Under the pieces are notes generated by a model. The model saw only the letters and a list, made by a program, of their open reading frames with translations, did not search any database and was not told the DNA's origin. The position numbers were made by a program, and so were the translations under genes. Positions 24,586 to 37,987 of a stretch of DNA of 43,882 nucleotides are shown in pieces. The DNA is from Candidatus Saccharimonadota bacterium (GTDB lineage Bacteria; Patescibacteriota; Saccharimonadia; Saccharimonadales; UBA10212), in NCBI GenBank assembly GCA_013815775.1, contig JACDFN010000001.1:1-43882 (forward strand), in the 5' to 3' direction. The stretch's first letter is position 1. Every line of letters begins with the position of its first letter.

Positions 24586-24651
24586 GTATCCTAAACCCTC
24601 ATTAAAAGTAACATCGTAAGTTACTATAAACTATAGCGAATGGCTGGTTGT

Positions 24652-24776: not shown

Positions 24777-24831
24777 CCTGTTAGAATTTGGGGGTTATTA
24801 TTGTTAATTTAACGCTTCATCATTACCCAAT

Positions 24832-24969: not shown

Positions 24970-25050
24970 TTTGCACCGCGTAGTCTGCTTCCTGACGGCG
25001 CGTAGCTCTGCACCCTATGCTTACTAACGGTCAAACTCCTACAACTTCTG

Positions 25051-25085
25051 CTTTTAGCTTTTAGCTTTTAGCATTAAGCTAAAAG
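25051..25085 (+). repeat. (CTTTTAG)x3 tandem repeat plus one inverted copy before rnpA
   Basis: CTTTTAG at 25051, 25058 and 25065; GCTAAAAG at 25078-85; ATG at 25087. Confidence 0.85.
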
Positions 25086-25086
25086 G

Positions 25087-25446: not shown

Positions 25447-25512
25447 CCTGCTTCTTACTAATGAGGTGAAATCTCACATGTTATTATAAGTGCCAAGAGG
25501 TTATCTATTTCT

Positions 25513-26427
25513 ATGTTCACAACTTTTGTTGTCCAGCCAATTTTCAATCTTCTGGTGCTTATCTATGCCCTAATCCCAGGACATAATTTCGGCTTAGCAA
25601 TAATTCTTTTCACAATTTTAATACGCATATTGATGCTGCCCTTAATTCGTAAGCAACTGCACCACGCTAAGGCCATACGCCAACTACAACCCGAGCTTAA
25701 AAAAATTAAATTAAGTACTAAGGGCGATCGTCAGAAACAGTCACAGATGACAATGGAACTTTATAAAGAGCGCCAGATTAACCCCTTCGCCTCTTTAGGA
25801 GTTGTTTTGGTCCAAATTCCTATTTTAATCGGTCTCTACTATGCCGTGAAGCGTATCGTTGAGAACCCCCAACAGATAGTCGACTTTTCGTACTCATTTA
25901 TAAGTAACATCAGCTGGCTGAAAACACTAGCGACTGACATTAACATGTTTGATGAAACACTATTAGGCGTTATTGACCTTACGCGCAAGGCAGTAGGAGA
26001 GGGAGGGGTGTACTGGCCGGCAATGCTGCTAGTTATTGGGAGCGCTGGTGCACAGTTTTTGCAGAGCCGCCAACTTATGCCCAAGAGCGAAGACGCCCGC
26101 CCGCTTAAGAAAATTTTAAGCGAGGCAGGGAAGGGTAAAACTGCTGATCAAACGGAGGTTAACGCTGCCGTTGGACGGGCCACTCTATACCTTATTCCCG
26201 GGTTTGTATTTATCATTTCCTTAAATTTTCCTTCTGCACTACCCCTCTACTGGTTTACCGGAAGCACCATTGCCTTCCTCCAGCAGAGAAGGATTTTAAA
26301 AGAAGATGTTTCGGAAGCTGAAGCCGTGGCTGCAGTATCCGAGCCAGACCCAGTGACTAAAAAACAAAAAGCAAAAGCCCGTAAAAATGCAAAAAATTCT
26401 CGTTCAAAAGGCAGGAGAAAGAAATGA
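25513..26427 (+). CDS. yidC: Membrane protein insertase YidC (short, monoderm type)
   Basis: FGLAIILFTILIR..LP, LQPELKKI, ELYKE..INP, QIPILIGLY, LPLYW. Confidence 0.95.
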   Translation: MFTTFVVQPIFNLLVLIYALIPGHNFGLAIILFTILIRILMLPLIRKQLHHAKAIRQLQPELKKIKLSTKGDRQKQSQMTMELYKERQINPFASLGVVLVQIPILIGLYYAVKRIVENPQQIVDFSYSFISNISWLKTLATDINMFDETLLGVIDLTRKAVGEGGVYWPAMLLVIGSAGAQFLQSRQLMPKSEDARPLKKILSEAGKGKTADQTEVNAAVGRATLYLIPGFVFIISLNFPSALPLYWFTGSTIAFLQQRRILKEDVSEAEAVAAVSEPDPVTKKQKAKARKNAKNSRSKGRRKK

Positions 26428-26924
26428 ACGAGAATATGGAAGAGGCAATCTTATACGCTAAGAAATATTTAGAGGATTTACTATCATTCTTCGGTCTGAA
26501 CACAGATGTGCATGCTACTTCTGAAGACCAGGAGGTTATTGAGCTGAGCGTTCCCTCAACTCACTTAAATGGGTTTTTAATTGGCCAGCGAGGGGACACT
26601 ATGCGTTCGCTTCAATACATAATTGGCACGGCCTTAAAGAGTCAAAACTTTTCGCACACCAGAGTTAATGTTGACATAGCTGATTACAAAAAAAATCGGG
26701 CTGAGAGATTGGTTAAAGAGGCGGAACAGTGGTTTAAAGAGGTCCAAGGTAGCGGCCAACCGAAAGAACTGGGGCCAATGAATGCTGCCGAAAGAAGGGT
26801 AGTGCACAAGGCAGCCGGCGAGCACGGGCTGGAAACCGAATCGGTCGGCGAGGGCAGGGACCGCCATATAGTACTAAAGCCGGCGGCGGCCACGACCGAC
26901 CCTTCCCCTCCCGAGGAAGAATAA
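26424..26924 (+). CDS. jag: Jag/KhpB RNA-binding protein (KH + R3H; lacks Jag_N)
   Basis: LIGQRGDTMRSLQY, VDIADY, PMNAAERRVVH, TESVGEG..R. Confidence 0.92.
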   Translation: MNENMEEAILYAKKYLEDLLSFFGLNTDVHATSEDQEVIELSVPSTHLNGFLIGQRGDTMRSLQYIIGTALKSQNFSHTRVNVDIADYKKNRAERLVKEAEQWFKEVQGSGQPKELGPMNAAERRVVHKAAGEHGLETESVGEGRDRHIVLKPAAATTDPSPPEEE

Positions 26925-26930
26925 AATACT

Positions 26931-28025
26931 TTACTTGTTAAGTATTTCTTTATAGACGCCGAGGGTTTGCTGGGCCATTTTTTTCCAAGAATATTGCTGG
27001 GCAAGCTTCAGACCGTTTTCACTCATTTCTTTTGCTAAAGCCTTATCGTCAAGTAGCTGTTGAATCTTCTCGGCCATATCTTTGGAGCTGTTGGGGTCAA
27101 AATATAGTGCCGCCTCTTGGTAAATTTCAGGGAGACAAGTCGCGTTGCTTGACGCCACGGGCAAGCCATAAAGCATTGCCTCCAGACCCGGTAATCCAAA
27201 TCCTTCGCTTAGTGACGGAAAGACATAGACCTGAGCGTTTTGGTAAAGCCATCTAAGCTCCCCTTCGGAAACAAAATCTGTAAATATTACGTCGCTAACC
27301 TTCTTATTTGTAAAGTATTTTTCGAGTTTTTGGTAGTTACCGTCGGTTTTACCGGCCAGAACTAGGCTAAGCTCAGGGTACGTCCACTTTAATTCTTGGA
27401 AAGCGTCCACCAGTCGCCTTAAATTCTTGTGGCGCTGTGCCCTGCCGACGTAGAGCAAGTATTGTTTACCCTCTAGACTTTTTATTGGCATAGGATCGGC
27501 CGTAATTTTATCTGCCGCCTCAGAGGTTACAACAATTTTATCTAAGTTTAGTCGGGTATAGCTGCTCAAGTCTTTTTTTACAAACTCGCTGGGCGTTATA
27601 ATTTTCTTAGACTTATGGGCAACTACCCAAACGACCCCCCTGTAGACCCATTGCTTCAATTTGAATACCAACCAGTTCTTTGTCGGATTATGAAACCTGG
27701 CGGTGGTCAGGTCGTGAACAGTGGTAACGGTTTTTTTGGGGTACAGCACCGGTTGGTGAGTCATAGAAAAATGCACCAAATCCGGCTTCAGGCTCCATAT
27801 CTGACGAAGAAGACCAAACTGCTCAGCAAAGGTAAATTCCCTATAAGGAGAGGCAACTTTTTTAAACTTCGGGCTCGTTGGCTGCCAAGTTTTGTAATCA
27901 TCGGGCTTAAGCAGTACCGTGTAATCGTTTTGATTATCGATTTTTTGCAAATAGTGCAGCAGCCGCTCCACATAACGGCCTGTGCTAGTCCGGAGTTCCC
28001 TTGCGTCAATCACTACTTGTGCCAT
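26931..28025 (-). CDS. GT4 family glycosyltransferase
   Basis: TVHDL, YVG....KN, VFPSLSEGFGLPGLEAM (Ex7E). Confidence 0.92.
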   Translation of the reverse strand: MAQVVIDARELRTSTGRYVERLLHYLQKIDNQNDYTVLLKPDDYKTWQPTSPKFKKVASPYREFTFAEQFGLLRQIWSLKPDLVHFSMTHQPVLYPKKTVTTVHDLTTARFHNPTKNWLVFKLKQWVYRGVVWVVAHKSKKIITPSEFVKKDLSSYTRLNLDKIVVTSEAADKITADPMPIKSLEGKQYLLYVGRAQRHKNLRRLVDAFQELKWTYPELSLVLAGKTDGNYQKLEKYFTNKKVSDVIFTDFVSEGELRWLYQNAQVYVFPSLSEGFGLPGLEAMLYGLPVASSNATCLPEIYQEAALYFDPNSSKDMAEKIQQLLDDKALAKEMSENGLKLAQQYSWKKMAQQTLGVYKEILNK

Positions 28026-28077
28026 AAACTTTAACTACTACTATATCTTAAAAGAAGAAAGAGTCTTATATTCCACC

Positions 28078-29070
28078 ATGGCAAAACGAGCATTAATCAC
28101 TGGGATAACCGGCCAGGACGGCGGCCACTTGGCCGAGCTACTCCACAAGAAAGACTACAAAGTTTACGGCATTATTCGAGGGCAACATAACCCCAAGCGT
28201 ATTGTCGTCGAACAGGAACAGCCATACGTCAACCTAATAGAGGCAGATCTAACTGACGGATCTTCTCTAGTCCGGGCAATTGAAACTGCACAACCGGAAG
28301 AACTCTATAATCTGGCAGCAGTGAGCCATGTGGGCTACTCCTTTAAAAATCCGCAACTTACAGCAGAGGTTACCGGTAAAGGAGTGCTGAACGTATTGGA
28401 GGCAATTCGATTATCTGGCGGCGAAAAAACAATTCGCTTTTATCAAGCGTCAACATCCGAAATGTTTGGGGGGCTTGACTATAACCGGCCTGGCAAAGGT
28501 TACGATGAAGATGCCCTGTTTCACCCGCGCAGTCCTTATGGCGTTGCTAAATTATACGGACATTGGATTACCAAAAACTATAGAGAAAGCTATGGTATAC
28601 ACGCAAGTTGCGGAATATTATTTAATCATGAGGGGCCACGCCGAGGGCTGGAATTTGTGACACGAAAAATTAGTAACTCGGTTGCCCGGATACATCTCGG
28701 CAAACAGGATCATATTGAGCTTGGTAATTTAGATTCAAAGAGAGATTGGGGCTATGCAGGTGACTATGTAGACGGTATGTGGCGCATGCTCCAACAAGAT
28801 GAGCCGGGAGACTATATTCTTGCTACCGGAGAAACTCATTCTATTGGAGATTTTCTGGAACTTGCCTTTAAAGAAGTAGGCATTGATGATTGGAAGCCGT
28901 ACGTAAAACAGAACCCAGCTTTCATGCGACCTGCAGAAGTTGATATTCTTCTTGGAAACCCCGCAAAAGCCGAAAGCGTTTTAGGCTGGAAAAGACAAGT
29001 AGATTTTCCTGGCCTAGTAAAGATGATGGTCCAGTACGACTTAGGGATTGAGACCAAAAGATCTACTTAA
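28078..29070 (+). CDS. gmd: GDP-mannose 4,6-dehydratase
   Basis: Start reassigned to ATG 28078; ALITGITGQDG, FYQASTSEMFG, PRSPYGVAK, GILFNHE, GNLDSKRDWG. Confidence 0.96.
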   Translation: MAKRALITGITGQDGGHLAELLHKKDYKVYGIIRGQHNPKRIVVEQEQPYVNLIEADLTDGSSLVRAIETAQPEELYNLAAVSHVGYSFKNPQLTAEVTGKGVLNVLEAIRLSGGEKTIRFYQASTSEMFGGLDYNRPGKGYDEDALFHPRSPYGVAKLYGHWITKNYRESYGIHASCGILFNHEGPRRGLEFVTRKISNSVARIHLGKQDHIELGNLDSKRDWGYAGDYVDGMWRMLQQDEPGDYILATGETHSIGDFLELAFKEVGIDDWKPYVKQNPAFMRPAEVDILLGNPAKAESVLGWKRQVDFPGLVKMMVQYDLGIETKRST

Positions 29071-29990
29071 GAGCTAAGAATATCTTCGATAGTTTGGTTG
29101 ATTGGTATTAATGGCTGCCAGCCTGTCTCTTTTTTGAGACGTTCGTAGCTGCCGTATATTTCGTGAGCGTCAGTTGGACGTATCAAAGAAGGGTCGGTTT
29201 CAACCTTAAGTCCGCTTGATCCCGTTTCATCAATTATCATATTTAGTATTTCTTCACCAGCTATACTTCGGCCGGTGCATATATTGTATGTACTAAACTT
29301 CAACTCCTTGGTTGCCAATAAAAAGTAAGCTTTAACAACGTCTCTAACATCCGTGTAATCTCGCCTAGTTTTAAGATTTCCGACTTTAACAGGAGTATCT
29401 TGCTCACCAGCTTCCAGTACTTGTTTAATAAGGTCTGGCACCAAAAAGCCCTGCAACTGCCCCGGCCCTATATGGTTAAAAGGTCTGACGATAATGCAAT
29501 CCAGCCCGCTTTCCTTATATTTTTTAGCTTCGTCTTCCATTGCCATTTTACTTTTTGTGTATGGAGAAACATCATTGGCAACCTTTGAGTCCTCTGTCAA
29601 AGGCATTGGTTGCATGCTGTCATAAACCGAGCCTGTGCTTATTGCCAGTATTCGGGTTTTAAGCTTTTGCTCACTAACCCTATTGCAAATATTGCTCAGG
29701 ACAGAAACATTTACTTTCATATATAAATCAGGTTGCTCAAAAGACTGGCCTACGTTAGCTAGTCCCGCCAAATTAATTACTGCCTGGTACGGTGCAAGAT
29801 CAAGCTTACCGACCTGTTCCTGGTCAGTTAAGTCACATATGATGAATTCATCAACTAACCTATCTATCTCACTTTTAGATTCTATTTCCCGGGCTATTCC
29901 ATCAACCTTGAACCCAGCGTCAACCAGAGCCCTAGTCAAGTGCTTTCCCACGAAGCCGTTAATCCCAGTTACTAATATTTTGTCTGCCAT
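29067..29990 (-). CDS. rmd: Probable GDP-4-keto-6-deoxy-D-mannose reductase (GDP-D-rhamnose synthesis)
   Basis: Start reassigned to ATG 29990; GINGFVG, SPYTKSK, RPFNHIGPGQ, GNLKTRRDYTDVRDVVKAY; adjacent to gmd. A 6-deoxytalose-forming reductase cannot be excluded. Confidence 0.72.
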   Translation of the reverse strand: MADKILVTGINGFVGKHLTRALVDAGFKVDGIAREIESKSEIDRLVDEFIICDLTDQEQVGKLDLAPYQAVINLAGLANVGQSFEQPDLYMKVNVSVLSNICNRVSEQKLKTRILAISTGSVYDSMQPMPLTEDSKVANDVSPYTKSKMAMEDEAKKYKESGLDCIIVRPFNHIGPGQLQGFLVPDLIKQVLEAGEQDTPVKVGNLKTRRDYTDVRDVVKAYFLLATKELKFSTYNICTGRSIAGEEILNMIIDETGSSGLKVETDPSLIRPTDAHEIYGSYERLKKETGWQPLIPINQTIEDILSS

Positions 29991-30058
29991 TAAATATAGC
30001 CTACACGAAATCAATACTATTCCGAACAATGACTCGCGGCTTCAATTGCTCATAAGAG

Positions 30059-30886
30059 GTGAAAGTTATAGAATTAAGTGAAGTGAAAGACCTAAAAAAT
30101 CGCTATCGATATTCCACTATTTTGCTTAAGCAGCTTGTAAAAACCGATTTCAAGTTACGTTATCAGGGTTCGTTTTTGGGATATGTTTGGACGCTGCTAC
30201 GGCCGTTAGCTTTATTTGCAATTTTATATGTTGTCTTTGGGAAGTTCCTAAAAATTGGCGACTCTGTTCCTCACTTTCCCATCTACCTACTACTGGGCAT
30301 AGTCGTATGGAATTACTTTGCCGAGGTAACCAGCGGCAGCGTTGCTGCTATTGTGGGCAAGGGTGAATTAATCAGAAAGATTAACTTTCCTAAGTATGTC
30401 ATTGTGCTTGCCGGTTCTTTCTCAGCACTCATAAACCTATGCATCAACTTTGTTGTCGTCGGGTTATTCTTGTACATCAACGATGTAGACATTAGAACTA
30501 TCGCGACTACTTTACCGATTTTCATCGTAGAGCTGTTTATTTTTTCATTAGCGTTAGCGTTTTTCTTAAGTGCAGCTTATGTTCGCTTTAGAGATATAAA
30601 TTATATTTGGGAAGTTATAATGCAGGCGGCGTTTTATATTACCCCAATTCTATATCCACTAAGCCTTCTGCCTGAAAATGCCGCTAAAATTATCATGCTA
30701 AATCCAATGGCTCAAATAATACAAGATATGCGCTACGTTTTGGTTACAGACAAAACCTTGACGATGAGCGGAGTTTATAACTCGCACTACATAAGGGCGG
30801 TACCGGTTGGGGTAACTATTTTACTGGTGGTTATTGCGGCCGTATACTTCAAAAAACGCTCACGTTATTTTGCGGAGGATGTTTAG
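30059..30886 (+). CDS. wzm: Polysaccharide ABC exporter permease
   Basis: DFKLRYQGSFLGYVW.LL.PL, LIRKINFP, FRDI, FYITPILYP, LNP; start uncertain (GTG 30059 or 30083). Confidence 0.92.
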   Translation: MKVIELSEVKDLKNRYRYSTILLKQLVKTDFKLRYQGSFLGYVWTLLRPLALFAILYVVFGKFLKIGDSVPHFPIYLLLGIVVWNYFAEVTSGSVAAIVGKGELIRKINFPKYVIVLAGSFSALINLCINFVVVGLFLYINDVDIRTIATTLPIFIVELFIFSLALAFFLSAAYVRFRDINYIWEVIMQAAFYITPILYPLSLLPENAAKIIMLNPMAQIIQDMRYVLVTDKTLTMSGVYNSHYIRAVPVGVTILLVVIAAVYFKKRSRYFAEDV

Positions 30887-30889
30887 CTT

Positions 30890-32068
30890 ATGAGTGACGA
30901 AATTGCTATTAGAGTAAATAACGTTTCTAAGAATTTTAGACTTCCTCACGAGAAAAGTTCTACCTTAAAGGGTGTTTTTACAAGCTTGGTATCCAAAAAA
31001 CGAAAAGGGTATGAGACACAACATGCTCTTAAGAACATCTCTTTCGAGGTCAAAACTGGGGAATTCTTCGGTATAGTCGGGAGAAACGGTAGCGGTAAAA
31101 GTACCCTGCTAAAAATTTTGGCTAACATATATCAGCCCAACAAGGGCACAGTTGAGGTTAGAGGAAAGTTAGTGCCTTTTATTGAGTTAGGAGTTGGGTT
31201 TAATCCAGAGTTATCCGGTCGAGAAAATGTATTTCTGAATGGTGCCCTGCTTGGTTTTAGTAGAAAAGAAATGCAGGCTATGTACAAAGACATCGTCGAG
31301 TTCGCCGAACTTGAACGGTTTATGGATCAAAAGTTAAAAAACTACTCTTCAGGCATGCAGGTTCGATTGGCTTTTTCCTTAGCAATCCGAGCTAACACAG
31401 ACATTCTGCTAGTGGATGAAGTGCTGGCTGTTGGTGATGCCGATTTCCAGAGAAAATGCTTCGAATATTTCAAAACACTCAAGCGTAATAATAAAACGGT
31501 GGTGTTCGTTACTCATGATATGGACGCTATTAGGGAATATTGCGATCGAGCACTAATGATTGAAGGTAGTAAAATTGTTAAAATTGGTTCTCCGGATTCA
31601 ATAGCGCAAAGCTACCACAAGCTATTCGCAACCCCTACCACCAATAAGGAAGGTGCAAGCCAAGACCGGTGGGGCGACAAGTTAGCCTACACCTCTGATA
31701 TGTCAATTCAATTAGAATCAAATACCATTACTGTCACACAAAAGGTGATGGCTAACCAAAGTTTGAGCGGTCCAGTAATAGGGTTTAGAATCAGGGACGC
31801 TGCCGGCAAGGAAGTGACAGGTACAAACACAGCGATAGAAAATACCAAAATACACGATTTAAGGCAGGGCAAAAGCATAACCTTGGAATGGAGGTTTGCC
31901 AACATTTTAGCGGACGGTCAGTATTTAATCGATCCCGCCGTTCTTCATCAGGACGGTATTACAGTGTCTGATTGGTGGAACGATTCAAAGCGATTCACTG
32001 TAAAGAAGAATCGTCACCTTCCATATACTTTAGATCCAGGATTCACACTTAGAGTTAGCAATGATTGA
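30890..32068 (+). CDS. wzt: Polysaccharide ABC exporter ATPase with C-terminal carbohydrate-binding domain
   Basis: GRNGSGKST, YSSGMQVRLAF, LLVDE; ~140-aa beta-sandwich extension starting RWGD. Confidence 0.93.
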   Translation: MSDEIAIRVNNVSKNFRLPHEKSSTLKGVFTSLVSKKRKGYETQHALKNISFEVKTGEFFGIVGRNGSGKSTLLKILANIYQPNKGTVEVRGKLVPFIELGVGFNPELSGRENVFLNGALLGFSRKEMQAMYKDIVEFAELERFMDQKLKNYSSGMQVRLAFSLAIRANTDILLVDEVLAVGDADFQRKCFEYFKTLKRNNKTVVFVTHDMDAIREYCDRALMIEGSKIVKIGSPDSIAQSYHKLFATPTTNKEGASQDRWGDKLAYTSDMSIQLESNTITVTQKVMANQSLSGPVIGFRIRDAAGKEVTGTNTAIENTKIHDLRQGKSITLEWRFANILADGQYLIDPAVLHQDGITVSDWWNDSKRFTVKKNRHLPYTLDPGFTLRVSND

Positions 32069-32948
32069 CACAAAAGCAATTACTACATTTGCGCAATATA
32101 ATGAAGACTTGATTCTATTGGCCCTCTCGCATGATAAGAGCGAGGGATTCTACGTGGACGTAGGAGCGAACTACCCCACAATAGATTCAGTCACAAAACT
32201 TTTTTACGAAAAAGGTTGGCGAGGTATTAACATAGAGCCTGTTAAGTCGCTTCATCAGGAATTACTTAAAGAGAGACCAAAGGACATAAATTTAATGTGT
32301 GGAGCAGGCGTAAAGCCCGGCAATTTATTATTGCGCGAGTATATAGGTGCGACTGGGCACTCTACGTTTGACGAAGAAGTTAAAAAGCAACGTGGAGACA
32401 GTTCAGAATATAAGGAGTATGAGGTACCGATAAAAACTCTAAATGATATCTTTACAGAAAATAAAGTTAAACAAATTGATTTTTTGAAGGTAGATGTTGA
32501 GGGATTCGAATATGAAGTAATTCTTGGCAATGATTGGGATAAGTATAGGCCGGAATTTATTTGCGTAGAAGCTACTCACCAATCGAAGGACTGGAAAACT
32601 CATCTTAAAAAAAATAAGTACAAGCTATTCATATCAGATGGCCTAAACGAGTACTACGTAGCAGAAGATTCATGGGATAAAGCGACAAATGGTTTTGAAG
32701 AGAGGATTGTAATGCTTGACTATCGTGCTCTGAAGCAACACCAACAACAGTCTTGGTCCAAAGACACAGAGCAGTTATTATTGCTAACGAACATAGTTAA
32801 ACGCCATGACAAAACAATTAGAGACCTTAGTGAGGCACTTGCACGTTCCTCGAGACTGTCCTTGACTGATCAAACGTGGCCGAGAAGATTAAAAAGGGCC
32901 ATTAAAGGCCTTACGGTCGATTGGTATAAATTTAAAACTAAAAAGTAA
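32061..32948 (+). CDS. FkbM family methyltransferase with C-terminal helical tail (candidate glycan chain terminator)
   Basis: Q..ED, GFYVDVGANYP..DSVT, GWRGINIEP, IDFLKVDVEG.E. Confidence 0.88.
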   Translation: MIDTKAITTFAQYNEDLILLALSHDKSEGFYVDVGANYPTIDSVTKLFYEKGWRGINIEPVKSLHQELLKERPKDINLMCGAGVKPGNLLLREYIGATGHSTFDEEVKKQRGDSSEYKEYEVPIKTLNDIFTENKVKQIDFLKVDVEGFEYEVILGNDWDKYRPEFICVEATHQSKDWKTHLKKNKYKLFISDGLNEYYVAEDSWDKATNGFEERIVMLDYRALKQHQQQSWSKDTEQLLLLTNIVKRHDKTIRDLSEALARSSRLSLTDQTWPRRLKRAIKGLTVDWYKFKTKK

Positions 32949-32949
32949 T

Positions 32950-34248
32950 TTAACTTCGCTTTTCTATAATCTGAAAAATGGAATTGGAGGTTTTGCTCCA
33001 ACTAAATTTTGCTGCTTGGGAGGCACCATTCTCGACCAATGATTTGGTTTTACTGTTATTCGAGGATAGTAAGCTGCGGACCTCTTTTCTAATACCAACA
33101 GACCTTTTTGTATACAATGGGACGGTGCCTGCTACTTCCACTACGGCACCGTTCTTGTAGCATATTACCGGGCATTTATGGGCCATAGCTTCCAGAACAG
33201 GTAACCCGAAGCCTTCATATGTGCTTGGGTAGACAAAGGCCAGAGCATGTTTATATAACCAGTCACGGGTTTTGTCGTCAGTAAAGCCCAAAAAAACAAT
33301 ATCTCCAAGGTATGAGGAACTTCTAAGGGAACCCTGGATTTCTTCCGTGGCAATATTTTCCGGCCCCTGCATCGTATCTCCAGTTAAGAATAGTTTAATT
33401 TTGACACCCTCTGCTCTAAGCGCATTAAAGGCAGTTATCAAATCTTCTAACTTTCTCCTTCTATCAGCTCCACCTACATATAAAAGATAGGGCGTTCCTA
33501 GGTCATGTTTAAATGGTTTAGCTAAATACCCCCAGGAGGTCTTTTCGTACCTTAGCAGCGATGGGGGTTCATCGTCACCCTCTACTGGGGATACACCTAA
33601 ATGTGTTATCTCAATTTTCTTCGGACTAGCCCCAACAAAATTAATAAAATCGATTTTAGTTTGCTCAGAGATAGCGAGCATAAGGTCAGCTCTCCGGGCA
33701 TTAATTTTTAATTTTTTCAAGTATAGCCAGCGCCTTGCTGTGCATCTTAAAGCTGCCTTTCTAGAGTAGCCTCTTGTTCTAGCAGTAGAATATGACCATA
33801 AATATTCCCATTCCAATACATAAGGAATAATGTCATAAACTATTAATACTTTTCTTAATCCCCACTTTCGCGGTAAGTTCTGAGATTGGTCGGGTTGTAT
33901 GAAAACGTCTATCCCCTTCAAGTCTTTAGTTATAGAGCTGCCAATGTAACGGTCCTTCAACTCGCCTAATTGTCGGATGGTACTTTTTATTAAGCGTTGC
34001 AACCTACCTATAGGAGAAGTCTTCTGGGCGAGCTTCTTTTCTGTTAAATACCGTATCTCGTAATTCATTCCATCAAGTTTTAGTAGCCTAACAGGATTGT
34101 TGAGATCACTTTTGAACATAAAAAAAACGAACCGGTGCTTTTCGCGATCTTTATCAGAAATATGGTTAATAAAGTTTAATACTGTAAAACCTATGCCTCT
34201 CATTCTGTGAGCGCTTTGGAGAGCAGATATATCGATGCCTATTGTCAT
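32950..34248 (-). CDS. GT4 family glycosyltransferase
   Basis: RGIG, YDIIP, YVGG..RRK, YPSTYEGFGLPVLEAM. Confidence 0.9.
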   Translation of the reverse strand: MTIGIDISALQSAHRMRGIGFTVLNFINHISDKDREKHRFVFFMFKSDLNNPVRLLKLDGMNYEIRYLTEKKLAQKTSPIGRLQRLIKSTIRQLGELKDRYIGSSITKDLKGIDVFIQPDQSQNLPRKWGLRKVLIVYDIIPYVLEWEYLWSYSTARTRGYSRKAALRCTARRWLYLKKLKINARRADLMLAISEQTKIDFINFVGASPKKIEITHLGVSPVEGDDEPPSLLRYEKTSWGYLAKPFKHDLGTPYLLYVGGADRRRKLEDLITAFNALRAEGVKIKLFLTGDTMQGPENIATEEIQGSLRSSSYLGDIVFLGFTDDKTRDWLYKHALAFVYPSTYEGFGLPVLEAMAHKCPVICYKNGAVVEVAGTVPLYTKRSVGIRKEVRSLLSSNNSKTKSLVENGASQAAKFSWSKTSNSIFQIIEKRS

Positions 34249-35411
34249 GACAACTCCTTAGCAACTTTTAAAAATTCTTCTGCGCTTTTTACCCAAGAAA
34301 ACTCCCTTGCTCGCTCTGGTCCCTCAAGCCTTGCTTTATCAGTTTTGTTATCGATATTTCTTAAGTAATCCTCCATGGCTAAGGTTAATTTCTCTAAGTT
34401 GTCACTTGGCACCATTTTCCCGGCACTACCTACCACTTCGGGTAAGGATGAGTTATTGGCAGTTATAACAGGTACACCGCAGGCCAGAGCCTCAAGTGGG
34501 GGCATTCCAAAACCCTCATAGTGGCTAGGGTAAACTAGCATTTTAGTTCCCGATATTATTGCCGGTTTGTCTTCATCTTTAACATAAGATGAAGGTCTGA
34601 TGATATTGTATCCTTCGTTTACCTTACTGATGATCTTCTGAAAGAGAGTGTCGGTTTTCCAGCCACTTACCCCAACTAGCAGCAAAGAGGTATCCTTAAT
34701 TATATCTTTAGGTAAACTGCAGAAGGCTTCAACCAAACTATCAAGGTTCTTGCGAGGCTCAAGGTTTGAAAGGGCTAGAATATAATCTCCTTCAATCCCG
34801 TATTTACTTTTTACTTCTTCAATTTCCTTTTTACTCCTTCTGTAGAATAGTCTCGGATCAGTTGCGGGGGTTGCTACCACCACCATGGCTGGGTCAATTT
34901 GATAAAAATCTATTATTTCATTTCGAGCATTTTGGGAAATTGTTAGAACTCTGTTTGTTTTTTCAATAGATTTACGGACCTGTTTAGTAAGAAAAACAGC
35001 ATTACCCTCATCAGAATATTGGCGATGTAGCTCAAAGGAAAGGTCAAAAATTACAATCGCAGATTTGCTAAAAGCTAGCGGCATACTAACAAACCTTGGG
35101 AATATATAAACTCCTGGACCACACCATAAATCAAGGGGAGGCAGCATTCTCCTGCGCCACAACGCACTCATAACTCTGAATGAGAGGGGTACGGTTTTAA
35201 AGCCAACATGCTTAAAACCAAATTTCAAAAACTTCGCTTTTGTATCATGAGGAATAATTACACTAATTTTTGGGACTTCTAATCCTAAATATTTTCTATC
35301 TTCCAATAGTTCATCTATTCCTTTTAAAATACCTAAGATATATTGGCCAACACCGCTGAAATGGCCTTCGACCAAACCTAGACCATCAATATAGATTGAT
35401 TTTTGCTTCAT
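34245..35411 (-). CDS. GT4 family glycosyltransferase
   Basis: SGVGQY, EPRKNL, YPSHYEGFGMPPLEALACGVPV, SSLPEV. Confidence 0.92.
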   Translation of the reverse strand: MKQKSIYIDGLGLVEGHFSGVGQYILGILKGIDELLEDRKYLGLEVPKISVIIPHDTKAKFLKFGFKHVGFKTVPLSFRVMSALWRRRMLPPLDLWCGPGVYIFPRFVSMPLAFSKSAIVIFDLSFELHRQYSDEGNAVFLTKQVRKSIEKTNRVLTISQNARNEIIDFYQIDPAMVVVATPATDPRLFYRRSKKEIEEVKSKYGIEGDYILALSNLEPRKNLDSLVEAFCSLPKDIIKDTSLLLVGVSGWKTDTLFQKIISKVNEGYNIIRPSSYVKDEDKPAIISGTKMLVYPSHYEGFGMPPLEALACGVPVITANNSSLPEVVGSAGKMVPSDNLEKLTLAMEDYLRNIDNKTDKARLEGPERAREFSWVKSAEEFLKVAKELS

Positions 35412-35475
35412 ATGACTTAGTCATAGTTTAACAGAGGACATAGTACTAACTACAGCGAACATTATTAAATTATTC

Positions 35476-37443
35476 TTATAGCACACCGGAAGTAGAGGTG
35501 TGCCAAAAAGGTAGATTAGCGTTGTTGTAGAGGACCAGATTCCCATCTGGTTGCATGATCATTCTTAAAGAGCCGCGGCCGGAGGTAGAGCTATGCCATA
35601 AAGGACGAGTAGACTTATCGTAAAGCACTAGGTTTCCATCTGGCTGCATGGCCAGGAAGGAGACCTGTTTACCGTCAGTCCCCGTTGCCCAGGTAGGCCT
35701 AGTTGGAGAATAAAGCACTAGGTTTCCATCTGGCTGCAAAATAAGACGAAAGCGCCTATCGGCAGTTTCAATACTCTGGCCTGGGTATAATCTTCCTACC
35801 CCCAAAGTAGTATTAATATACGAAAGATGGTCTGGTCTATGAATAGTATAGGAAGCCCAAACGGGAGTATTAGAAGAGTTATAAATAACCATGTTGCCAT
35901 CGGTTTGCAGTACAACTTGCGATCCGGGGTTACCAGAGGTTTCGGAGTTCCAAAGAGGAACATTGTTGAGACTATAAAGCACTAGGTTTCCATCTGGCTG
36001 CATAACTACCCGGCTAGCTCCCGCTAAGGGACCGGTGCTCCAAACAGACTTAAAGTTAGAATTAAGAGTTAGGTTGCCATCTTTTTGCAAAGTTAAAACA
36101 GTCTGAGAGTCTGGTGATAATAGATAATCGTCCTTGTTTAATATACCCCCTGAACCAAGTGTCGTATTAGTCGAGTTAGATGGACTAATGGCTGTATTGA
36201 CATTAACCGTGAAGAAAAGTCCGAGGTCGTTTAGCCATGAGCGGCCTTCAGCTACGAGGTTGTAGTACTCACTATACGTCCCAGCTGCATTTGGTGCCTG
36301 AAGAGCAAATTCAAATGTAGCGATCCCTCCGGGTGATATTGTGTTTTCCAACATTTTTGCGGCTCTGCTATTAGAGACCCAAGTTGAGTCGGCAAAAATG
36401 CCAACACTATCCATCGGTCTTGAAGCAGCAAGGTGGAAAAACGATTGATCCCAGGTTTGGGTACCCATATTACGAGCTTTAACACGGACGTAGATTTTAC
36501 CGCCCGGAACTACTGTAGGCACAGAAGTAAATGTTTGTGTTCTGGCTGAGTTGGAGTAAGCCCATTGACCCTCATATAACCAAGCCCAAGGAATGTTTGA
36601 ATTTGGCGAACCGAACCAGTCTATGTACATTCTCCAGAAGTTACGGTTACCGTATGCACCGCAACTATCACCGCTGCCGTATAAGTTATTCAAGGCCGAA
36701 ACGTTGGGCTGGTAGGGAGTGTAGTTATAGAGACCTGCGGTAGCCTGGTTTTGCATACTAACGTCTGTCCCCCCACAGCCGGCGTTAGGATTATATTGAA
36801 CGAAGCTTGTACGCCCACCGCCAAAGTTATATAGATTAGGCTGCTTAGCGTAGCGCTGGAATTGGCGCGCGGCGTTGTAGACTTGGTTAAAAAATCCATA
36901 ATACTCAGCGTCACATGGGGCAGTATCGGGACAGCCATATCCGGTTGCGCTTCTGTATTGAATGTTCCACGGCCAATCGTCGGTAACTAAACTTTGCTCT
37001 TTCTGAAGCAGCACAATCATTGCCTTAGCACTAACCCCGCAAGCTTGTGCTACGTCATAAATAATTTGTGCGGCGGACTTTGAACCCGCACTAACCGACC
37101 CGCCACAGTAAGCGTCGGGCGACTTGGCGGGTATTGCTTGGGAATAATCCTTAAGGCAAGTATAAGGCGGGGGATTTCCCCTGGAGGTTCCGTATTCGGC
37201 GCGGGTCATGCTGCCAGAGTAAATTTTTGTTCCGTTGGTGTCACAAACTGGAACTTTAGTGTTTAAGAATGTCTGAATATCACCGGGGTTCATAGTGTTA
37301 GGATTGAAAAATATAGCGTCGTCAATGATTCGGCCTGCTTGCCAATCGCTGCCTGATAAAGCTGAAGCCGGTGGACTGAAGACAAGTGCACTTAATAAAG
37401 AGATGGTGGCGACCGATAAGTAGAATTTTATGTACCGTGCCAT
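35476..37443 (-). CDS. Secreted protein: putative lysozyme-like N-domain + NBR1-like Ig domain + two bulb-type (GNA) B-lectin domains
   Basis: Signal ending ASA; LLQKEQSL..GYGCPD..GFFNQVYNAA..LYNYTPY; V.VKARNMGTQTW..AP..AGTY.E; five QxDGNxVxY motifs plus degenerate QKDGNLTLN. Confidence 0.85.
   Translation of the reverse strand: MARYIKFYLSVATISLLSALVFSPPASALSGSDWQAGRIIDDAIFFNPNTMNPGDIQTFLNTKVPVCDTNGTKIYSGSMTRAEYGTSRGNPPPYTCLKDYSQAIPAKSPDAYCGGSVSAGSKSAAQIIYDVAQACGVSAKAMIVLLQKEQSLVTDDWPWNIQYRSATGYGCPDTAPCDAEYYGFFNQVYNAARQFQRYAKQPNLYNFGGGRTSFVQYNPNAGCGGTDVSMQNQATAGLYNYTPYQPNVSALNNLYGSGDSCGAYGNRNFWRMYIDWFGSPNSNIPWAWLYEGQWAYSNSARTQTFTSVPTVVPGGKIYVRVKARNMGTQTWDQSFFHLAASRPMDSVGIFADSTWVSNSRAAKMLENTISPGGIATFEFALQAPNAAGTYSEYYNLVAEGRSWLNDLGLFFTVNVNTAISPSNSTNTTLGSGGILNKDDYLLSPDSQTVLTLQKDGNLTLNSNFKSVWSTGPLAGASRVVMQPDGNLVLYSLNNVPLWNSETSGNPGSQVVLQTDGNMVIYNSSNTPVWASYTIHRPDHLSYINTTLGVGRLYPGQSIETADRRFRLILQPDGNLVLYSPTRPTWATGTDGKQVSFLAMQPDGNLVLYDKSTRPLWHSSTSGRGSLRMIMQPDGNLVLYNNANLPFWHTSTSGVL
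35621..36002. repeat. Three identical 28-bp repeats encoding lectin sugar-binding motifs
   Basis: TAAAGCACTAGGTTTCCATCTGGCTGCA at 35621-48, 35711-38 and 35975-36002. Confidence 0.93.
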
Positions 37444-37447
37444 ATGT

Positions 37448-37987
37448 TTATACCTCTATAACCTTAGACTGGAAAGCTTCAGCTGTTGCTGACTTATAGA
37501 TAACTTTTATCGTCCAGGGGCCGCCTCCTAAAGGAGTATCCCACTCCATAGGGGCGCACTGAGTGTAGGATACGTTTTGAAAACCACTGGAAGATTTTGT
37601 TTTAACTTGAGAGCCCTGTGTGGCGGTTGCAGTGCAGGTTCCTCCTTCTTCAAATACACCTGTAACATATGCCCTTACTAAAACACCAGTTGCCTCTGTG
37701 ATTACTACAGTGGCCGGGTTTGTCTGTGATGAAGAAGGAGGGTTTTTAATTTGCTCGTCACGATTTACGATTTCTTCTTTATGTTTATTGGCTTCGTCTT
37801 TTTCCTCGTCTGTGGGGGGGTCTAGATTAACCTCTTGGCCGTCCTCTGTAATTAGCTGGGCCTGGTCGTTCAGAGGAGCCTTATTATTGCGAGCCACGGC
37901 CAAATATAAAAGCGCGGAACCTGCGATGATTATCGCCGCCGATGCCAAAAGAACCTTGCGAAGTTTTTTATTTCGAATAGTTACCAT
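37448..37987 (-). CDS. Membrane-anchored hypothetical protein (TM, charged linker, small Cys-paired beta domain)
   Basis: Basic N-terminus + TM; VNLDPPT.EE; GGTCTAT...C; 4 bp upstream of the lectin gene, likely co-transcribed. Confidence 0.75.
   Translation of the reverse strand: MVTIRNKKLRKVLLASAAIIIAGSALLYLAVARNNKAPLNDQAQLITEDGQEVNLDPPTDEEKDEANKHKEEIVNRDEQIKNPPSSSQTNPATVVITEATGVLVRAYVTGVFEEGGTCTATATQGSQVKTKSSSGFQNVSYTQCAPMEWDTPLGGGPWTIKVIYKSATAEAFQSKVIEV

What the first reader, a model, noticed from the sequence alone, without database searches (positions are those of the whole stretch)
26931..37987. Putative muramidase-tandem B-lectin fusion embedded in a probable D-rhamnan locus: possible glycan-anchor/lectin pair
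Seen: 35476-37443 has a signal peptide, an enzyme-like N-domain, an Ig spacer and two B-lectin domains, directly upstream of two GT4 genes on the same strand and beside gmd, rmd-like, wzm, wzt and a methyltransferase. Established: Gmd+Rmd make GDP-D-rhamnose, and tandem QxDxNxVxY lectins of the Pseudomonas LlpA/pyocin L type bind D-rhamnose better than mannose. Inference: the cell makes a D-rhamnose polymer and uses it to tether a wall-degrading enzyme on its own surface, like choline- or SLH-based anchoring. Alternative: the lectin recognises host mannosides and delivers the hydrolase to the host wall.
Basis: partly seen in the sequence, partly recalled or inferred. Interest (0 to 1): 0.82.

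Follow-up and report, generated by a model that had tools for sequence, protein, structure and literature searches.

The report
Lectin-tailed wall hydrolase in glycan locus
A tiny soil Saccharibacteria-type bacterium encodes a secreted, probably cell-wall-cutting enzyme with a sugar-binding lectin tail inside the gene cluster for its own mannose/D-rhamnose-type surface polymer, most likely a way of holding wall-remodelling enzymes on its own sugar coat: a new variant of a familiar design.

Summary
Observation confirmed. 35476-37443(-) encodes a 655-aa secreted protein with a signal peptide, an unannotated 250-aa Cys-rich head, an NBR1-like Ig domain and two B-lectin domains (5 of 6 QxDxNxVxY sites intact). 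It sits in an operon with two GT4 genes, beside gmd, an Rmd-like reductase, wzm, wzt (+Wzt_C) and an FkbM methyltransferase.

The head has no Pfam or PDB sequence match. A pLDDT-95.6 model gives only weak fold hits, about half of them GH73/GH23 lysozyme-like enzymes. 'Muramidase' is therefore plausible, not shown.

New here:
- The head is single-copy in 284 of 401 sampled Saccharimonadia genomes and also occurs in Actinobacteria.
- It follows a small membrane-anchored partner gene in 69 of 75 loci. The two are predicted to form a complex (ipSAE 0.80, best control 0.00).
- A second hydrolase (CHAP), 12 kb away behind GDP-mannose genes, carries the same lectin tandem.

Lectin tails are about 10-fold commoner where gmd+rmd are present (14/40 vs 8/244). 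As many such loci use Ig arrays instead, and the relatedness-corrected test is underpowered.

Best reading: a self-glycan-tethered autolysin with EpaU-like logic, confidence 0.5. A host-directed lysin stays open. The scan has met this architecture before in other genomes.

The parts
26931..28025 (-). GT4 glycosyltransferase (first of three in the locus)
   Evidence: PF00534 121 bits
28084..29070 (+). [quoted passage not shown] The ORF as listed starts at GTG 27982; the family match starts at 28084.
   Evidence: PF16363 398 bits; TIGR01472 387 bits vs cut-off 415
29067..30029 (-). Rmd-like GDP-4-keto-6-deoxy-D-mannose reductase (SDR)
   Evidence: Best PDB sequence matches 2pk3 (7e-47) and 6x3b (6.5e-37), both Rmd-type. 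Product stereochemistry not testable.
30059..30886 (+). Wzm, ABC-2 permease of a polysaccharide exporter
   Evidence: PF01061 52 bits; NF050109 60 bits
30890..32068 (+). Wzt, the ATPase, with a C-terminal glycan-binding Wzt_C domain
   Evidence: PF00005 80 bits, PF14524 68 bits
32061..32948 (+). FkbM-family methyltransferase; possible chain-end capping enzyme (inference)
   Evidence: PF05050 91 bits
32950..34248 (-). GT4 glycosyltransferase, last gene of the partner-hydrolase-GT4-GT4 operon
   Evidence: PF00534 72 bits; 4-nt overlap with the preceding gene
34245..35411 (-). GT4 glycosyltransferase, directly downstream of the hydrolase gene
   Evidence: PF00534 91 bits; 64-nt gap without a terminator-like site
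35476..37443 (-). 655-aa secreted modular protein P0001 (whole gene including stop)
37360..37443 (-). Signal peptide, residues 1-28, cleavage after A-S-A
   Evidence: Read from the translation; no predictor run
36598..37359 (-). Head domain, residues 29-282. Unannotated, 8 Cys, conserved E149 at the end of a helix; probable lysozyme-like wall glycosidase.
   Evidence: No Pfam even at E<=10; model pLDDT 95.6; weak GH73/GH23 fold hits; E149 99% conserved
36199..36576 (-). NBR1-like Ig domain, residues ~290-415
   Evidence: PF16158 25 bits, under cut-off 28. The same domain forms tandem arrays in relatives.
35821..36168 (-). B-lectin domain 1, residues 426-541; 2 of 3 sites intact
35479..35820 (-). 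B-lectin domain 2, residues 542-655; 3 of 3 sites intact
37448..37987 (-). P0121, 179 aa: N-terminal membrane anchor, low-complexity linker, ~85-aa two-Cys domain. Conserved upstream partner, predicted to bind the head domain.
   Evidence: 4 nt from the hydrolase start codon; upstream homolog in 69 of 75 loci; ipSAE 0.80, best control 0.00
38107..40218 (+). 703-aa multi-pass membrane protein, no family; divergently transcribed. Homologs recur near the hydrolase gene in some relatives.
   Evidence: No Pfam; tblastn hits in L009, L012, L089, L100, L107
40218..41336 (+). UDP-N-acetylglucosamine 2-epimerase
   Evidence: PF02350 182 bits
41320..42258 (-). GT2 glycosyltransferase
   Evidence: PF00535 101 bits
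42239..43597 (-). 452-aa multi-pass membrane protein, no family hit; flippase-like by eye only
   Evidence: No Pfam; sequence

Best explanation
P0001 is a secreted, modular cell-wall hydrolase. Its head belongs to a very large, unnamed, disulfide-rich family. The head probably has a lysozyme-like (GH73/GH23-type) fold with E149 as the catalytic acid, and cuts the glycan strands of peptidoglycan.

The gene is translationally coupled to a small membrane-anchored protein, P0121. P0121 is predicted to dock on the most conserved face of the head: the G168-A175 loop with D173, and N240-P243 with Y241. It most likely positions or restrains the enzyme at the producer's own membrane.

The pair sits in one operon with two GT4 genes of an ABC-transporter-dependent (Wzm/Wzt) wall glycan. 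That glycan is built from GDP-mannose and, through Gmd plus an Rmd-like reductase, probably GDP-D-rhamnose. It may be capped by the FkbM methyltransferase and read by the Wzt_C domain.

The Ig plus tandem B-lectin tail then holds the enzyme non-covalently on this mannose/D-rhamnose polymer of the cell's own wall. A second hydrolase, the CHAP protein 12 kb away with the same lectin tandem, would be held the same way.

Shown: the architecture, the gene order, the conservation of the pair, and the raw co-occurrence with gmd/rmd. Inferred: the catalytic activity, the complex, the sugar made, the sugar bound, and that the target is self.
For: Architecture and locus.

Head family:
- 3682 representative proteins at E<=1e-3, 2176 at <=1e-30.
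- Present in 284 of 401 sampled Saccharimonadia genomes, almost always as one match, and once in this genome.
- This genome has no PF01832 or PF01464 match at E<=1.

Fold:
- AlphaFold model pLDDT 95.6.
- 24 of the 50 listed Foldseek rows are GH73/GH23 enzymes (LytB first, then SagB, AtlE, Atl, Acp, P68 lysin, g-type lysozymes, SltB1/3). All are at E>=0.74.

Tails of relatives are recognised wall- or glycan-binding modules: DUF5648, ChW, LysM, LGFP, CBM_4_9, FG-GAP.

Free-living Actinobacteria carry the same head+partner pair with LGFP tails. There the enzyme can only act on the cell's own wall.

Partner:
- A homolog lies directly upstream on the same strand in 62 of 75 loci by script, plus 7 more found in another frame.
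- Complex prediction: median ipSAE 0.80, best of 3 controls 0.00. This mark was reached by 58 of 80 solved complexes and 2 of 110 mismatched pairs. The runs agree in >=97% of contacts and partner pLDDT is >=92, with own alignments used.

Self-glycan link:
- Lectin hit and gmd lie on one contig, 7-16 kb apart, in 14 genomes of at least 10 families.
- Lectin-positive genomes have gmd+rmd in 16 of 33 cases, against 36 of 368 for the rest.
- Among head-bearing genomes, lectin tails occur in 14 of 40 with the pair and 8 of 244 without.
- Of 63 Saccharibacteria-type loci whose head has no lectin, 2 have gmd and 1 has rmd within 10 kb.
- The second lectin protein, CHAP + 2 B_lectin, lies directly behind ManC-like and PMM-like genes. 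Its lectin tandem is 45% identical to that of P0001.

Precedent: E. faecalis EpaU is an autolysin encoded in the epa polysaccharide cluster whose wall-binding domain binds that polysaccharide (PMC13343894, abstract read).
Against: - No statistically significant fold or sequence match supports any enzymatic activity. Pfam gives none at E<=10 over 27 members. PHROGs gives none. The PDB profile search gives none. Foldseek gives 0 hits at E<=1e-3 in PDB and BFVD.
- The lectin/gmd-rmd link is loose. Fourteen verified gmd+rmd genomes carry the head with Ig arrays or propellers and no lectin. Eight lectin tails occur without the pair. Three of the 14 positives were found only because those genomes were looked at more closely.
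- With relatedness allowed for, only about 5 independent contrasts remain (2.7 same way, 0.2 opposite, 2.0 no difference; median p 0.25). The rows of that tree were partly chosen by the labels.
- The head gene sits in Wzm/Wzt loci whatever its tail (wzt within 10 kb in 25 of 63 loci). Position in the locus alone therefore says little about the lectin.
- The Ig domain also tracks gmd+rmd: 12 of 14 against 9 of 38. It, rather than the lectins, could be the binder.
- Hosts of cultured Saccharibacteria carry rhamnose- and mannose-rich wall polysaccharides. Free rhamnose and mannose block attachment through an adhesin not yet identified (10.64898/2026.10.06.756255 and 10.1101/2024.11.25.624915, passages read).
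- An adjacent small binding protein is also the pattern of effector-immunity pairs.
Confidence: 0.5

Rival explanations
1. Host- or competitor-directed lysin. The lectins, with or without the Ig domain, recognise mannose/rhamnose polymers on the wall of the actinobacterial host or of rival cells and deliver the hydrolase there. P0121 is the producer's membrane-anchored immunity protein, which blocks the enzyme's active face.
For: - Cultured Saccharibacteria are obligate epibionts. Their hosts' walls hold roughly equimolar rhamnose and mannose, and both sugars inhibit attachment by a mechanism not explained by the pili (passages read).
- Albusin B, a B-lectin domain plus an M15 peptidase, is a bacteriocin of a Gram-positive bacterium (PMC6240691, passage read).
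- The predicted partner interface covers the most conserved residues of the head. An enzyme next to a small binder is the usual effector-immunity layout.
- In this class B-lectin tails also sit on S8, M23, C1, CAP and GH26 heads, which is also the make-up of an attack set.
- Eight lectin tails occur in genomes without gmd+rmd.
Against: - The head+partner pair is single-copy, present in 284 of 401 genomes, and fixed in the cell's own glycan locus. That is unlike the patchy spread of bacteriocins.
- The same pair occurs in free-living Actinobacteria with LGFP wall anchors.
- A host's glycan is not encoded by the epibiont. Enrichment of lectin tails next to gmd/rmd is therefore not expected under this reading, unless epibiont and host make the same sugar.
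Confidence: 0.25
2. A wall-polysaccharide-processing enzyme rather than a peptidoglycan hydrolase. The head trims, releases or transfers the Wzm/Wzt-exported polymer or its linkage unit. The Ig and lectin modules act as substrate-binding CBMs.
For: - The gene is a conserved member of Wzm/Wzt glycan loci in two phyla and is co-transcribed with GT4 genes.
- No significant similarity to any peptidoglycan hydrolase was found.
- GH23-like chitinase and GH124 cellulase also appear among the weak fold hits.
- An actinobacterial homolog carries CBM_4_9.
Against: - The head is highly conserved (60-70% identity across families) while the loci make different sugars (gmd/rmd present or not). This suggests a substrate common to all, such as peptidoglycan.
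- Relatives carry LysM, ChW and LGFP tails, which go with peptidoglycan/wall enzymes.
- The recurrent weak fold hits are mostly peptidoglycan glucosaminidases.
Confidence: 0.12
3. A lectin-like bacteriocin of the LlpA/pyocin L kind with an extra N-terminal module.
For: The tandem B-lectin region matches putidacin L1 and pyocins L1/L2 (E about 1e-17) and the NCBIfam model NF033557 (186 bits). Those proteins bind D-rhamnose of the common polysaccharide antigen (PMC6240691, passages read; PMC3916391, abstract start only).
Against: - The NF033557 score is below its cut-off of 275.
- The lectins are only the last 230 of 655 residues.
- LlpA proteins act on BamA of Gram-negative outer membranes (PMC6240691). 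That target is not expected in this Gram-positive-type lineage (recalled, not tested).
- The best single match is a non-bacteriocin bacterial lectin (4oit).
Confidence: 0.03

Closest known systems
Enterococcus faecalis EpaU (autolysin encoded in the epa wall-polysaccharide cluster; PMC13343894, abstract read)
   Same: A peptidoglycan hydrolase gene lies inside the biosynthetic cluster of a rhamnose-containing wall polysaccharide, and its wall-binding domain binds that cluster's product. This is the same logic as proposed here.
   Different: EpaU is a recognised muramidase type with a different wall-binding domain, and it binds teichoic-acid-like decorations of an L-rhamnan. Here the head is an unnamed family, the tail is NBR1-like Ig plus tandem B-lectin, the sugar pathway is GDP-based (D-rhamnose/mannose), and there is a conserved membrane partner. 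Nothing here has been tested at the bench.
GH73 N-acetylglucosaminidase autolysins with repeat-based wall-binding modules (S. pneumoniae LytB, S. aureus SagB/AtlE/Atl, C. perfringens Acp)
   Same: These are the top and recurrent fold-search hits. Like them, the head has a conserved Glu at the end of a helix and the protein is a secreted modular enzyme with a non-catalytic wall-targeting tail. SagB works in a complex with a membrane protein, SpdC (entry title 6u0o; function recalled).
   Different: There is no sequence match to PF01832. Fold similarity is weak (E 0.74, TM 0.26). The head has eight cysteines and extra N-terminal elements. The partner is a small single-anchor protein, not a polytopic one.
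Lectin-like bacteriocins LlpA / putidacin L1 / pyocin L1 (Pseudomonas)
   Same: Tandem B-lectin (MMBL) domains with QxDxNxVxY sites. In those proteins the C-terminal domain binds D-rhamnose of a Gmd/Rmd-derived polymer (PMC6240691).
   Different: Those are two-domain toxins that act on BamA and carry no enzyme head. Their genes are not in the rhamnan locus. Here the lectins are the tail of a 655-aa enzyme in a Gram-positive-type organism, and the family model's cut-off is not reached.
Albusin B of Ruminococcus albus (B-lectin + peptidase M15; PMC6240691)
   Same: A B-lectin domain fused to a cell-wall-active enzyme in a Gram-positive bacterium.
   Different: The domain order is the opposite, there is one lectin, and the enzyme is a peptidase. 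It is described as a bacteriocin against another species, and no link to a glycan locus is reported in the passage read.
ABC-transporter-dependent D-rhamnan pathways (P. aeruginosa common polysaccharide antigen; Aneurinibacillus thermoaerophilus S-layer glycan)
   Same: gmd + rmd + wzm + wzt + several GT4 glycosyltransferases + a methyltransferase. The reductase here is most similar to the two solved Rmd enzymes.
   Different: The gene content of those loci is recalled, not compared here. This locus additionally encodes the hydrolase, its partner, a UDP-GlcNAc 2-epimerase, a GT2 and two unassigned membrane proteins. The polymer structure is unknown.

Membership tests
B_lectin / MMBL (PF01453) | Pfam model above its gathering score | tested here: met
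   61.3 bits against 32.4, three stretches
B_lectin / MMBL (PF01453) | Three QxDxNxVxY sugar-binding motifs per domain | tested here: met
   Domain 2 has 3 of 3 and domain 1 has 2 of 3; the site at 453 reads QKDGNLTLN
B_lectin / MMBL (PF01453) | Binding of mannose or D-rhamnose | not testable with these tools
   Needs a glycan array or ITC
LlpA / putidacin L1 lectin-like bacteriocins (NF033557) | NCBIfam model above its cut-off | tested here: not met
   186 bits against a cut-off of 275
LlpA / putidacin L1 lectin-like bacteriocins (NF033557) | Architecture of two lectin domains plus a short C-terminal extension and nothing else | tested here: not met
   425 residues (head + Ig) precede the lectins
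GH73 (PF01832) peptidoglycan glucosaminidases | Sequence match to the family model | tested here: not met
   No Pfam hit at E<=10 for any of 27 family members; no PF01832 match in the genome at E<=1
GH73 (PF01832) peptidoglycan glucosaminidases | Lysozyme-like fold with a catalytic Glu at a helix end | tested here: inconclusive
   Top Foldseek hit LytB 7pj4: E 0.74, prob 0.47, TM 0.26. 24 of 50 listed rows are GH73/GH23. E149 is 99% conserved at the end of helix 139-150.
GH73 (PF01832) peptidoglycan glucosaminidases | Hydrolysis of peptidoglycan glycan strands | not testable with these tools
   Needs zymography or muropeptide analysis
[quoted passage not shown] | Family model match | tested here: met
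   PF16363 398 bits. TIGR01472 387 bits is slightly under its equivalog cut-off of 415.
[quoted passage not shown] | Closest characterised relatives are Rmd enzymes, and the gene is adjacent to gmd | tested here: met
   2pk3 7e-47, 6x3b 6.5e-37. The genes abut. All 52 sampled genomes with an Rmd-like gene also have gmd.
[quoted passage not shown] | Product is GDP-D-rhamnose, not GDP-6-deoxy-D-talose or another sugar | not testable with these tools
   Stereochemistry of reduction cannot be read from the sequence
ABC-transporter-dependent (Wzm/Wzt) glycan export with chain-end recognition | ABC-2 permease, plus an ATPase carrying a Wzt_C domain | tested here: met
   PF01061, PF00005 and PF14524
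Autolysin tethered to the wall polymer of its own locus (EpaU-type logic) | Hydrolase gene inside the glycan biosynthesis cluster | tested here: met
   Operon with two GT4 genes, 6.4 kb from gmd. The linkage is conserved in 14 genomes.
Autolysin tethered to the wall polymer of its own locus (EpaU-type logic) | The tail binds that cluster's product | not testable with these tools
   Only indirect evidence: 14/40 against 8/244 co-occurrence; the tree-corrected test is underpowered

The most novel reading that the evidence does not exclude
Saccharibacteria use a mannose/D-rhamnose wall polymer together with Ig and B-lectin tails as a general non-covalent surface-display system. In role it would be comparable to choline-binding or SLH/SCWP anchoring. 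It would carry a whole set of secreted enzymes: an unnamed lysozyme-like family, CHAP, M23, S8, C1, CAP and GH26. The core enzyme would be a two-component machine, a new peptidoglycan-hydrolase family controlled by a dedicated membrane-anchored partner that covers its active face, shared with Actinobacteria. Because hosts also carry rhamnomannans, the same lectins could be the unidentified rhamnose/mannose-inhibitable adhesin of the epibiont.
Probability: 0.3. Interest if true: 0.8.

Novelty: new variant of a known kind. Interest (0 to 1): 0.58.

Why it matters
The cell envelope of Saccharibacteria and other ultra-small epibionts is almost unknown, and so is how they grow, divide and touch their hosts.

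If the reading holds, it names four things:
- A very large, unannotated family of wall hydrolases: 3682 representative clusters, present in about 70% of sampled Saccharimonadia and in Actinobacteria.
- The family's dedicated membrane partner.
- A new kind of bacterial wall-anchoring module (B-lectin, with or without an NBR1-like Ig domain).
- The anchor's likely ligand, a GDP-sugar-derived polymer.

It also gives concrete reagents for an open question from the cultured systems: which lectin explains rhamnose- and mannose-sensitive attachment. Labelled lectin and Ig domains would serve that purpose.

The design principle itself, an autolysin tethered to the polymer made by its own locus, is already known from EpaU and from choline-binding autolysins.

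Tried and rejected
Attempts to assign the head to a family:
- Pfam at E<=0.01 for the window protein and at E<=10 for 27 family members: no family on the head.
- NCBIfam, PHROGs, PDB by sequence and by profile: nothing on the head.
- First structure model (27 sequences, pLDDT 77.8), searched against PDB and BFVD: 0 hits at E<=1e-3.
- Second model (96 sequences, pLDDT 95.6): still 0 hits at E<=1e-3.
- ESM Atlas: the 30 nearest clusters have no common Pfam family, and no structure search was possible.

P0121: no Pfam, NCBIfam, PHROG or PDB sequence relative.

LlpA membership: rejected.

Apparent fusion of partner and head in Actinobacteria: rejected. It was an artefact of long stop-free frames in high-GC DNA; the partner is a separate ORF in another frame.

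The 80 genome-contig loci of the head family contained no lectin-tailed member. The lectin-tailed set therefore had to be drawn from the class sample.

Expression: no RNA holder listed; read laying was not used.

Independent-contrast test: run, but underpowered.

Literature:
- Searches for Saccharibacteria + rhamnose + lectin, Patescibacteria + peptidoglycan hydrolase + lectin, Saccharibacteria + D-rhamnose and Saccharibacteria + autolysin listed no paper that, by title and abstract start, describes this protein family or a lectin-tethered hydrolase in these bacteria. Those listed papers were not opened, apart from three read in passages.
- D-rhamnan + Microbacteriaceae found nothing relevant.
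- The main text of the Southlakia Tn-seq paper (PMC10633639, term search only) does not mention peptidoglycan hydrolases.

Full report
**1.
The window is the first 43.9 kb of a contig of a 747-kb, 99%-complete genome in 4 contigs. Close homologs of its proteins are named Saccharibacteria or Patescibacteria by their depositors. The only sequencing run that holds the stretch is a soil metagenome.

To the left of the finding lie recF, dnaN, dnaA | rnpA, yidC, jag, so the glycan region starts next to the replication-origin gene set.

- GT4, 26931-28025(-).
- gmd, family match from 28084 to 29070(+).
- An SDR, 29067-30029(-), whose best solved relatives are the two Rmd-type reductases 2pk3 (7e-47) and 6x3b (6.5e-37).
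- wzm, then wzt with a Wzt_C domain.
- An FkbM methyltransferase.
- Two GT4 genes, 32950-35411(-).
- The 655-aa protein P0001, 35476-37443(-).

P0001 has four parts. It starts with a signal-peptide-like N-terminus (read). Next comes a 250-residue head without any family. A weak NBR1-like Ig match follows (PF16158, 25 bits, under the cut-off of 28). It ends in two B-lectin domains (PF01453, 61 bits). Five of six QxDxNxVxY motifs are intact.

**2. Operon structure.**
The 179-aa ORF P0121 (37448-37987) ends 4 nt before the start codon of P0001. A 64-nt gap without a terminator-like site leads to the first GT4 gene. The two GT4 genes overlap by 4 nt. Partner, hydrolase and two glycosyltransferases therefore look like one transcription unit. 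It diverges from a 703-aa membrane protein of no family.

**3. What the head is.**
It belongs to a very large family. A word-indexed search scored 7840 of 8000 candidates at E<=1e-3. An exhaustive search of 50%-identity representatives gave 3682 proteins at E<=1e-3 and 2176 at <=1e-30, some with three or four tandem copies of the domain. None of 27 members hits any Pfam family on the head, even at E<=10. PHROGs and the PDB by sequence or profile also give nothing.

The alignment shows eight conserved cysteines and a nearly invariant K-E-Q at 148-150, plus D155, D173, Y239-Y241-Y244 and G-N-R-N-F.

A first model from 27 sequences reached pLDDT 77.8. A second from 96 sequences, which added divergent and actinobacterial members, reached pLDDT 95.6 and pTM 0.89. 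Neither gives a Foldseek match at E<=1e-3 in the PDB or BFVD.

The weak hits are nevertheless not random. With the good model the first row is the GH73 catalytic domain of pneumococcal LytB (E 0.74, prob 0.47, TM 0.26). Of the 50 rows listed, 24 are GH73 or GH23 lysozyme-like enzymes: LytB, SagB, AtlE, Atl, the C. perfringens autolysin, phage P68 lysin, the phage Andhra tail tip, g-type lysozymes, a GH23 chitinase and SltB1/3. Most of the rest are P450s at prob 0.01.

E149 sits at the C-terminal end of helix 139-150, as the catalytic Glu does in those families (placement recalled).

The genome has no PF01832 or PF01464 match at E<=1.

The tails of relatives are wall- or glycan-binding modules: DUF5648, ChW, LysM, LGFP, FG-GAP, DUF346-type propellers and CBM_4_9.

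I conclude that the head is probably a remote lysozyme-like peptidoglycan glycosidase (about 0.7). 'Muramidase' is one of three possible bond specificities, and none is shown.

**4. A conserved partner.**
In 80 loci of the family from species-representative genomes, a homolog of P0121 lies directly upstream on the same strand in 62 of the 75 loci with room for it. Seven more, all actinobacterial, were found in another frame once inflated high-GC ORFs were set aside. That makes 69 of 75.

Saccharibacterial members have an N-terminal membrane helix. Actinobacterial ones have lipobox-like starts. All share an ~85-residue C-terminal domain with two conserved Cys, a Gly and a Trp.

A complex prediction was run with residues 30-290 of the head and 90-179 of P0121, each with its own alignment. 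The median score was ipSAE 0.80 (runs 0.75, 0.87, 0.80), against 0.00 for the best of three controls. This mark was reached by 58 of 80 solved complexes and 2 of 110 mismatched pairs. The runs agree in at least 97% of contacts, and the partner's pLDDT is at least 92. The calibration holds only roughly, because own alignments were used.

The named contacts are G168-A175, D178, A191, Q194, N203-F207, R211, S213-Q216, P219, A221 and N240-P243. They include D173 and Y241, both 98% conserved.

This supports binding but does not show it. Whether P0121 inhibits, tethers or activates the enzyme is open.

**5. The lectin tail and the sugar pathway.**
The genome holds a second lectin protein, 12 kb to the right of P0001 and outside the window (G000:C1:49551-50828). 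It is CHAP plus two B_lectin domains. Its lectin tandem is 45% identical to that of P0001. It lies directly behind a ManC-like guanylyltransferase (TIGR01479, 245 bits, under the cut-off) and a PMM-like HAD-IIB protein, and in front of another GT4. Both lectin-tailed hydrolases therefore lie in one 25-kb stretch devoted to GDP-mannose-derived glycan synthesis.

All were at least 80% complete and the same set was used in all four searches.

| Feature searched | Genomes positive (of 401) |
|---|---|
| PF01453, any match at E<=1e-3 | 43 |
| PF01453, over its cut-off | 33 |
| gmd | 85 |
| Rmd-like gene (E<=1e-50) | 52, all also gmd-positive |
| Head family | 284, almost always one match |

The intersections below come from comparing the handle lists by hand:
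- Lectin-positive genomes over the cut-off have gmd in 20 of 33 cases, against 65 of 368 for the rest.
- They have gmd+rmd in 16 of 33 cases, against 36 of 368.
- In 14 genomes from at least 10 family codes, the lectin hit and gmd lie 7-16 kb apart on one contig.

Fetching the regions showed that most of these lectins are tails of the same head-Ig-lectin protein, next to gmd, rmd, wzm, wzt and GT4 genes.

Among the 40 head-bearing genomes with gmd+rmd:
- 14 have a lectin tail. Eleven were found by the Pfam scan and 3 only by a motif scan.
- 14 verifiably do not.
- 12 were not examined.

Among the 244 head-bearing genomes without the pair:
- 7 have a lectin tail by the Pfam scan.
- One more turned up among the 39 best-scoring that I motif-scanned. 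Forty were fetched, one had no recognisable ORF, and the unpublished G231 was left out.

Four further fusions have divergent heads below the 1e-20 threshold: G018 with the pair, G048 and G138 with gmd only, and G010 with neither.

In the independent set of 63 Saccharibacteria-type loci whose head has no lectin, gmd (>=300 bits) lies within 10 kb in 2, and an Rmd-like gene (>=200 bits) in 1.

These counts include the unpublished genomes G326 (lectin tail, gmd+rmd) and G231 (head only). Without them the figures are 13 of 39 and 8 of 243.

**6. Limits of that test.**
- The association is strong in raw counts but not exclusive in either direction.
- Three positives were found only through closer inspection of the gmd+rmd group. 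The closer-look rates were 3 of 17 there against 1 of 39 elsewhere.
- Relatives are not independent. On a tree of 71 head domains, the lectin state changes at least 8 times and the gmd+rmd state at least 15 times. Only 5 contrasts lie on supported branches. Over 200 random pairings, gmd+rmd goes the same way in 2.7, the other way in 0.2 and does not differ in 2.0 (median p 0.25). The rows were partly chosen by their labels.
- The head gene sits in Wzm/Wzt loci whatever its tail: wzt at >=200 bits lies within 10 kb in 25 of 63 loci, and in 21 of the 38 loci of at least 15 kb.
- The 'Ig spacer' is not neutral. In gmd+rmd genomes without a lectin tail, 12 of 14 heads carry two to four tandem NBR1-like Ig domains. 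In genomes without the pair, 9 of 38 do. The Ig domain may therefore itself be a binder of the locus's product.

**7. Self or host.**

Points for self:
- The linkage and enrichment described above.
- The single-copy, near-universal, syntenic nature of the head+partner pair.
- Its presence, at about 50% identity and again next to wzm/wzt and often gmd, in free-living Actinobacteria: Plantibacter, Leifsonia, Agromyces, Agreia, Isoptericola, Geodermatophilus and Phycicoccus. There it carries LGFP or CBM tails.
- The sharing of one tail by two hydrolases in this genome, and by S8, M23, C1, CAP, GH26 and CHAP heads in the class. This is what surface-anchoring modules typically look like.
- The precedent of EpaU.

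Points for host:
- In the cultured oral system, the host wall holds about equimolar rhamnose and mannose. Free rhamnose and mannose inhibit attachment, and the authors conclude that the pilus adhesin PilX2 is unlikely to be the mechanism.
- A lectin-peptidase bacteriocin exists in a Gram-positive bacterium.
- Enzyme-plus-binder pairs are also the format of effector-immunity systems.

I put self-tethering at about 0.5, a host- or rival-directed lysin at 0.25, a polymer-processing enzyme at 0.12 and a true LlpA-type bacteriocin at 0.03.

**8. Comparison and novelty.**
The design is a wall hydrolase, encoded in the locus of a wall polymer and held by a module that binds that polymer. It is known from EpaU and, with unlinked genes, from choline-binding autolysins (the latter recalled).

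New here would be four things: the enzyme family, the dedicated partner, the use of B-lectin (and perhaps NBR1-like Ig) domains as a bacterial wall anchor, and a GDP-sugar-derived ligand. Hence 'new variant of a known kind'.

In the held library I found no paper that describes the family or this arrangement in Saccharibacteria (judged by the title-and-abstract listings).

Earlier agents of this scan reported the same architecture in other genomes. Their GH73 reading, the small membrane partner and the EpaU comparison agree with what I found. The partner and the fold were tested independently here.

Noticed in passing
G000:C1:47641-50828 (outside the window, 4-7 kb beyond its right end; loci L144, L001): ManC-like guanylyltransferase, PMM-like HAD-IIB protein, then a 425-aa CHAP + two B-lectin protein, all on one strand, followed by a GT4 on the other. 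This is a second lectin-tailed hydrolase directly behind GDP-mannose supply genes.
   Followed up: yes
L127-L143 and L145-L184 (head genes of other Saccharimonadia genomes): Tandem arrays of two to five NBR1-like Ig domains are the sole tail in 12 of 14 lectin-less heads of gmd+rmd genomes, against 9 of 38 elsewhere. The 'Ig spacer' may itself be a glycan-binding module.
   Followed up: partly
L052, L056, L061, L063, L065, L070, L072, L074, L076, L077, L079-L081, L083, L084, L087, L088: The head + small-partner gene pair occurs at about 50% identity in free-living Actinobacteria (Microbacteriaceae, Geodermatophilus, Phycicoccus, Isoptericola). There the partner is a lipoprotein and the tails are LGFP or CBM_4_9. 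Whether this reflects transfer between epibionts and their host phylum was not examined.
   Followed up: partly
L089, L091, L093, L097, L101, L110, L119, L123 (class relatives): B-lectin tails also sit on S8 subtilases (2), an M23-like peptidase, CAP domains, a GH26 (mannanase-family) domain, a C1 peptidase, CHAP and a beta-propeller protein. One protein carries about nine lectin motifs.
   Followed up: partly
P0124, P0125, P0126 (public proteins): Proteins of 824-1116 aa with three or four tandem copies of the head domain.
   Followed up: no
window 20752-26924: recF, dnaN, dnaA on the minus strand and rnpA, yidC, jag on the plus strand. The glycan region starts right beside the replication-origin gene set.
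   Followed up: no
window 38107-40218 and 42239-43597: Two large multi-pass membrane proteins with no Pfam family inside the glycan region. Homologs of the first recur next to the hydrolase gene in several relatives (L009, L012, L089, L100, L107).
   Followed up: partly
(method): The six-frame PF01453 scan at E<=1e-3 missed single-domain lectin tails that a simple motif scan finds: 3 of 17 and 1 of 39 ORFs examined. Pfam-based censuses of this module therefore undercount.
   Followed up: yes
window 8032-10893 and 14710-17970: Two long ORFs (953 and 1086 aa) in the left half of the window were not examined.
   Followed up: no
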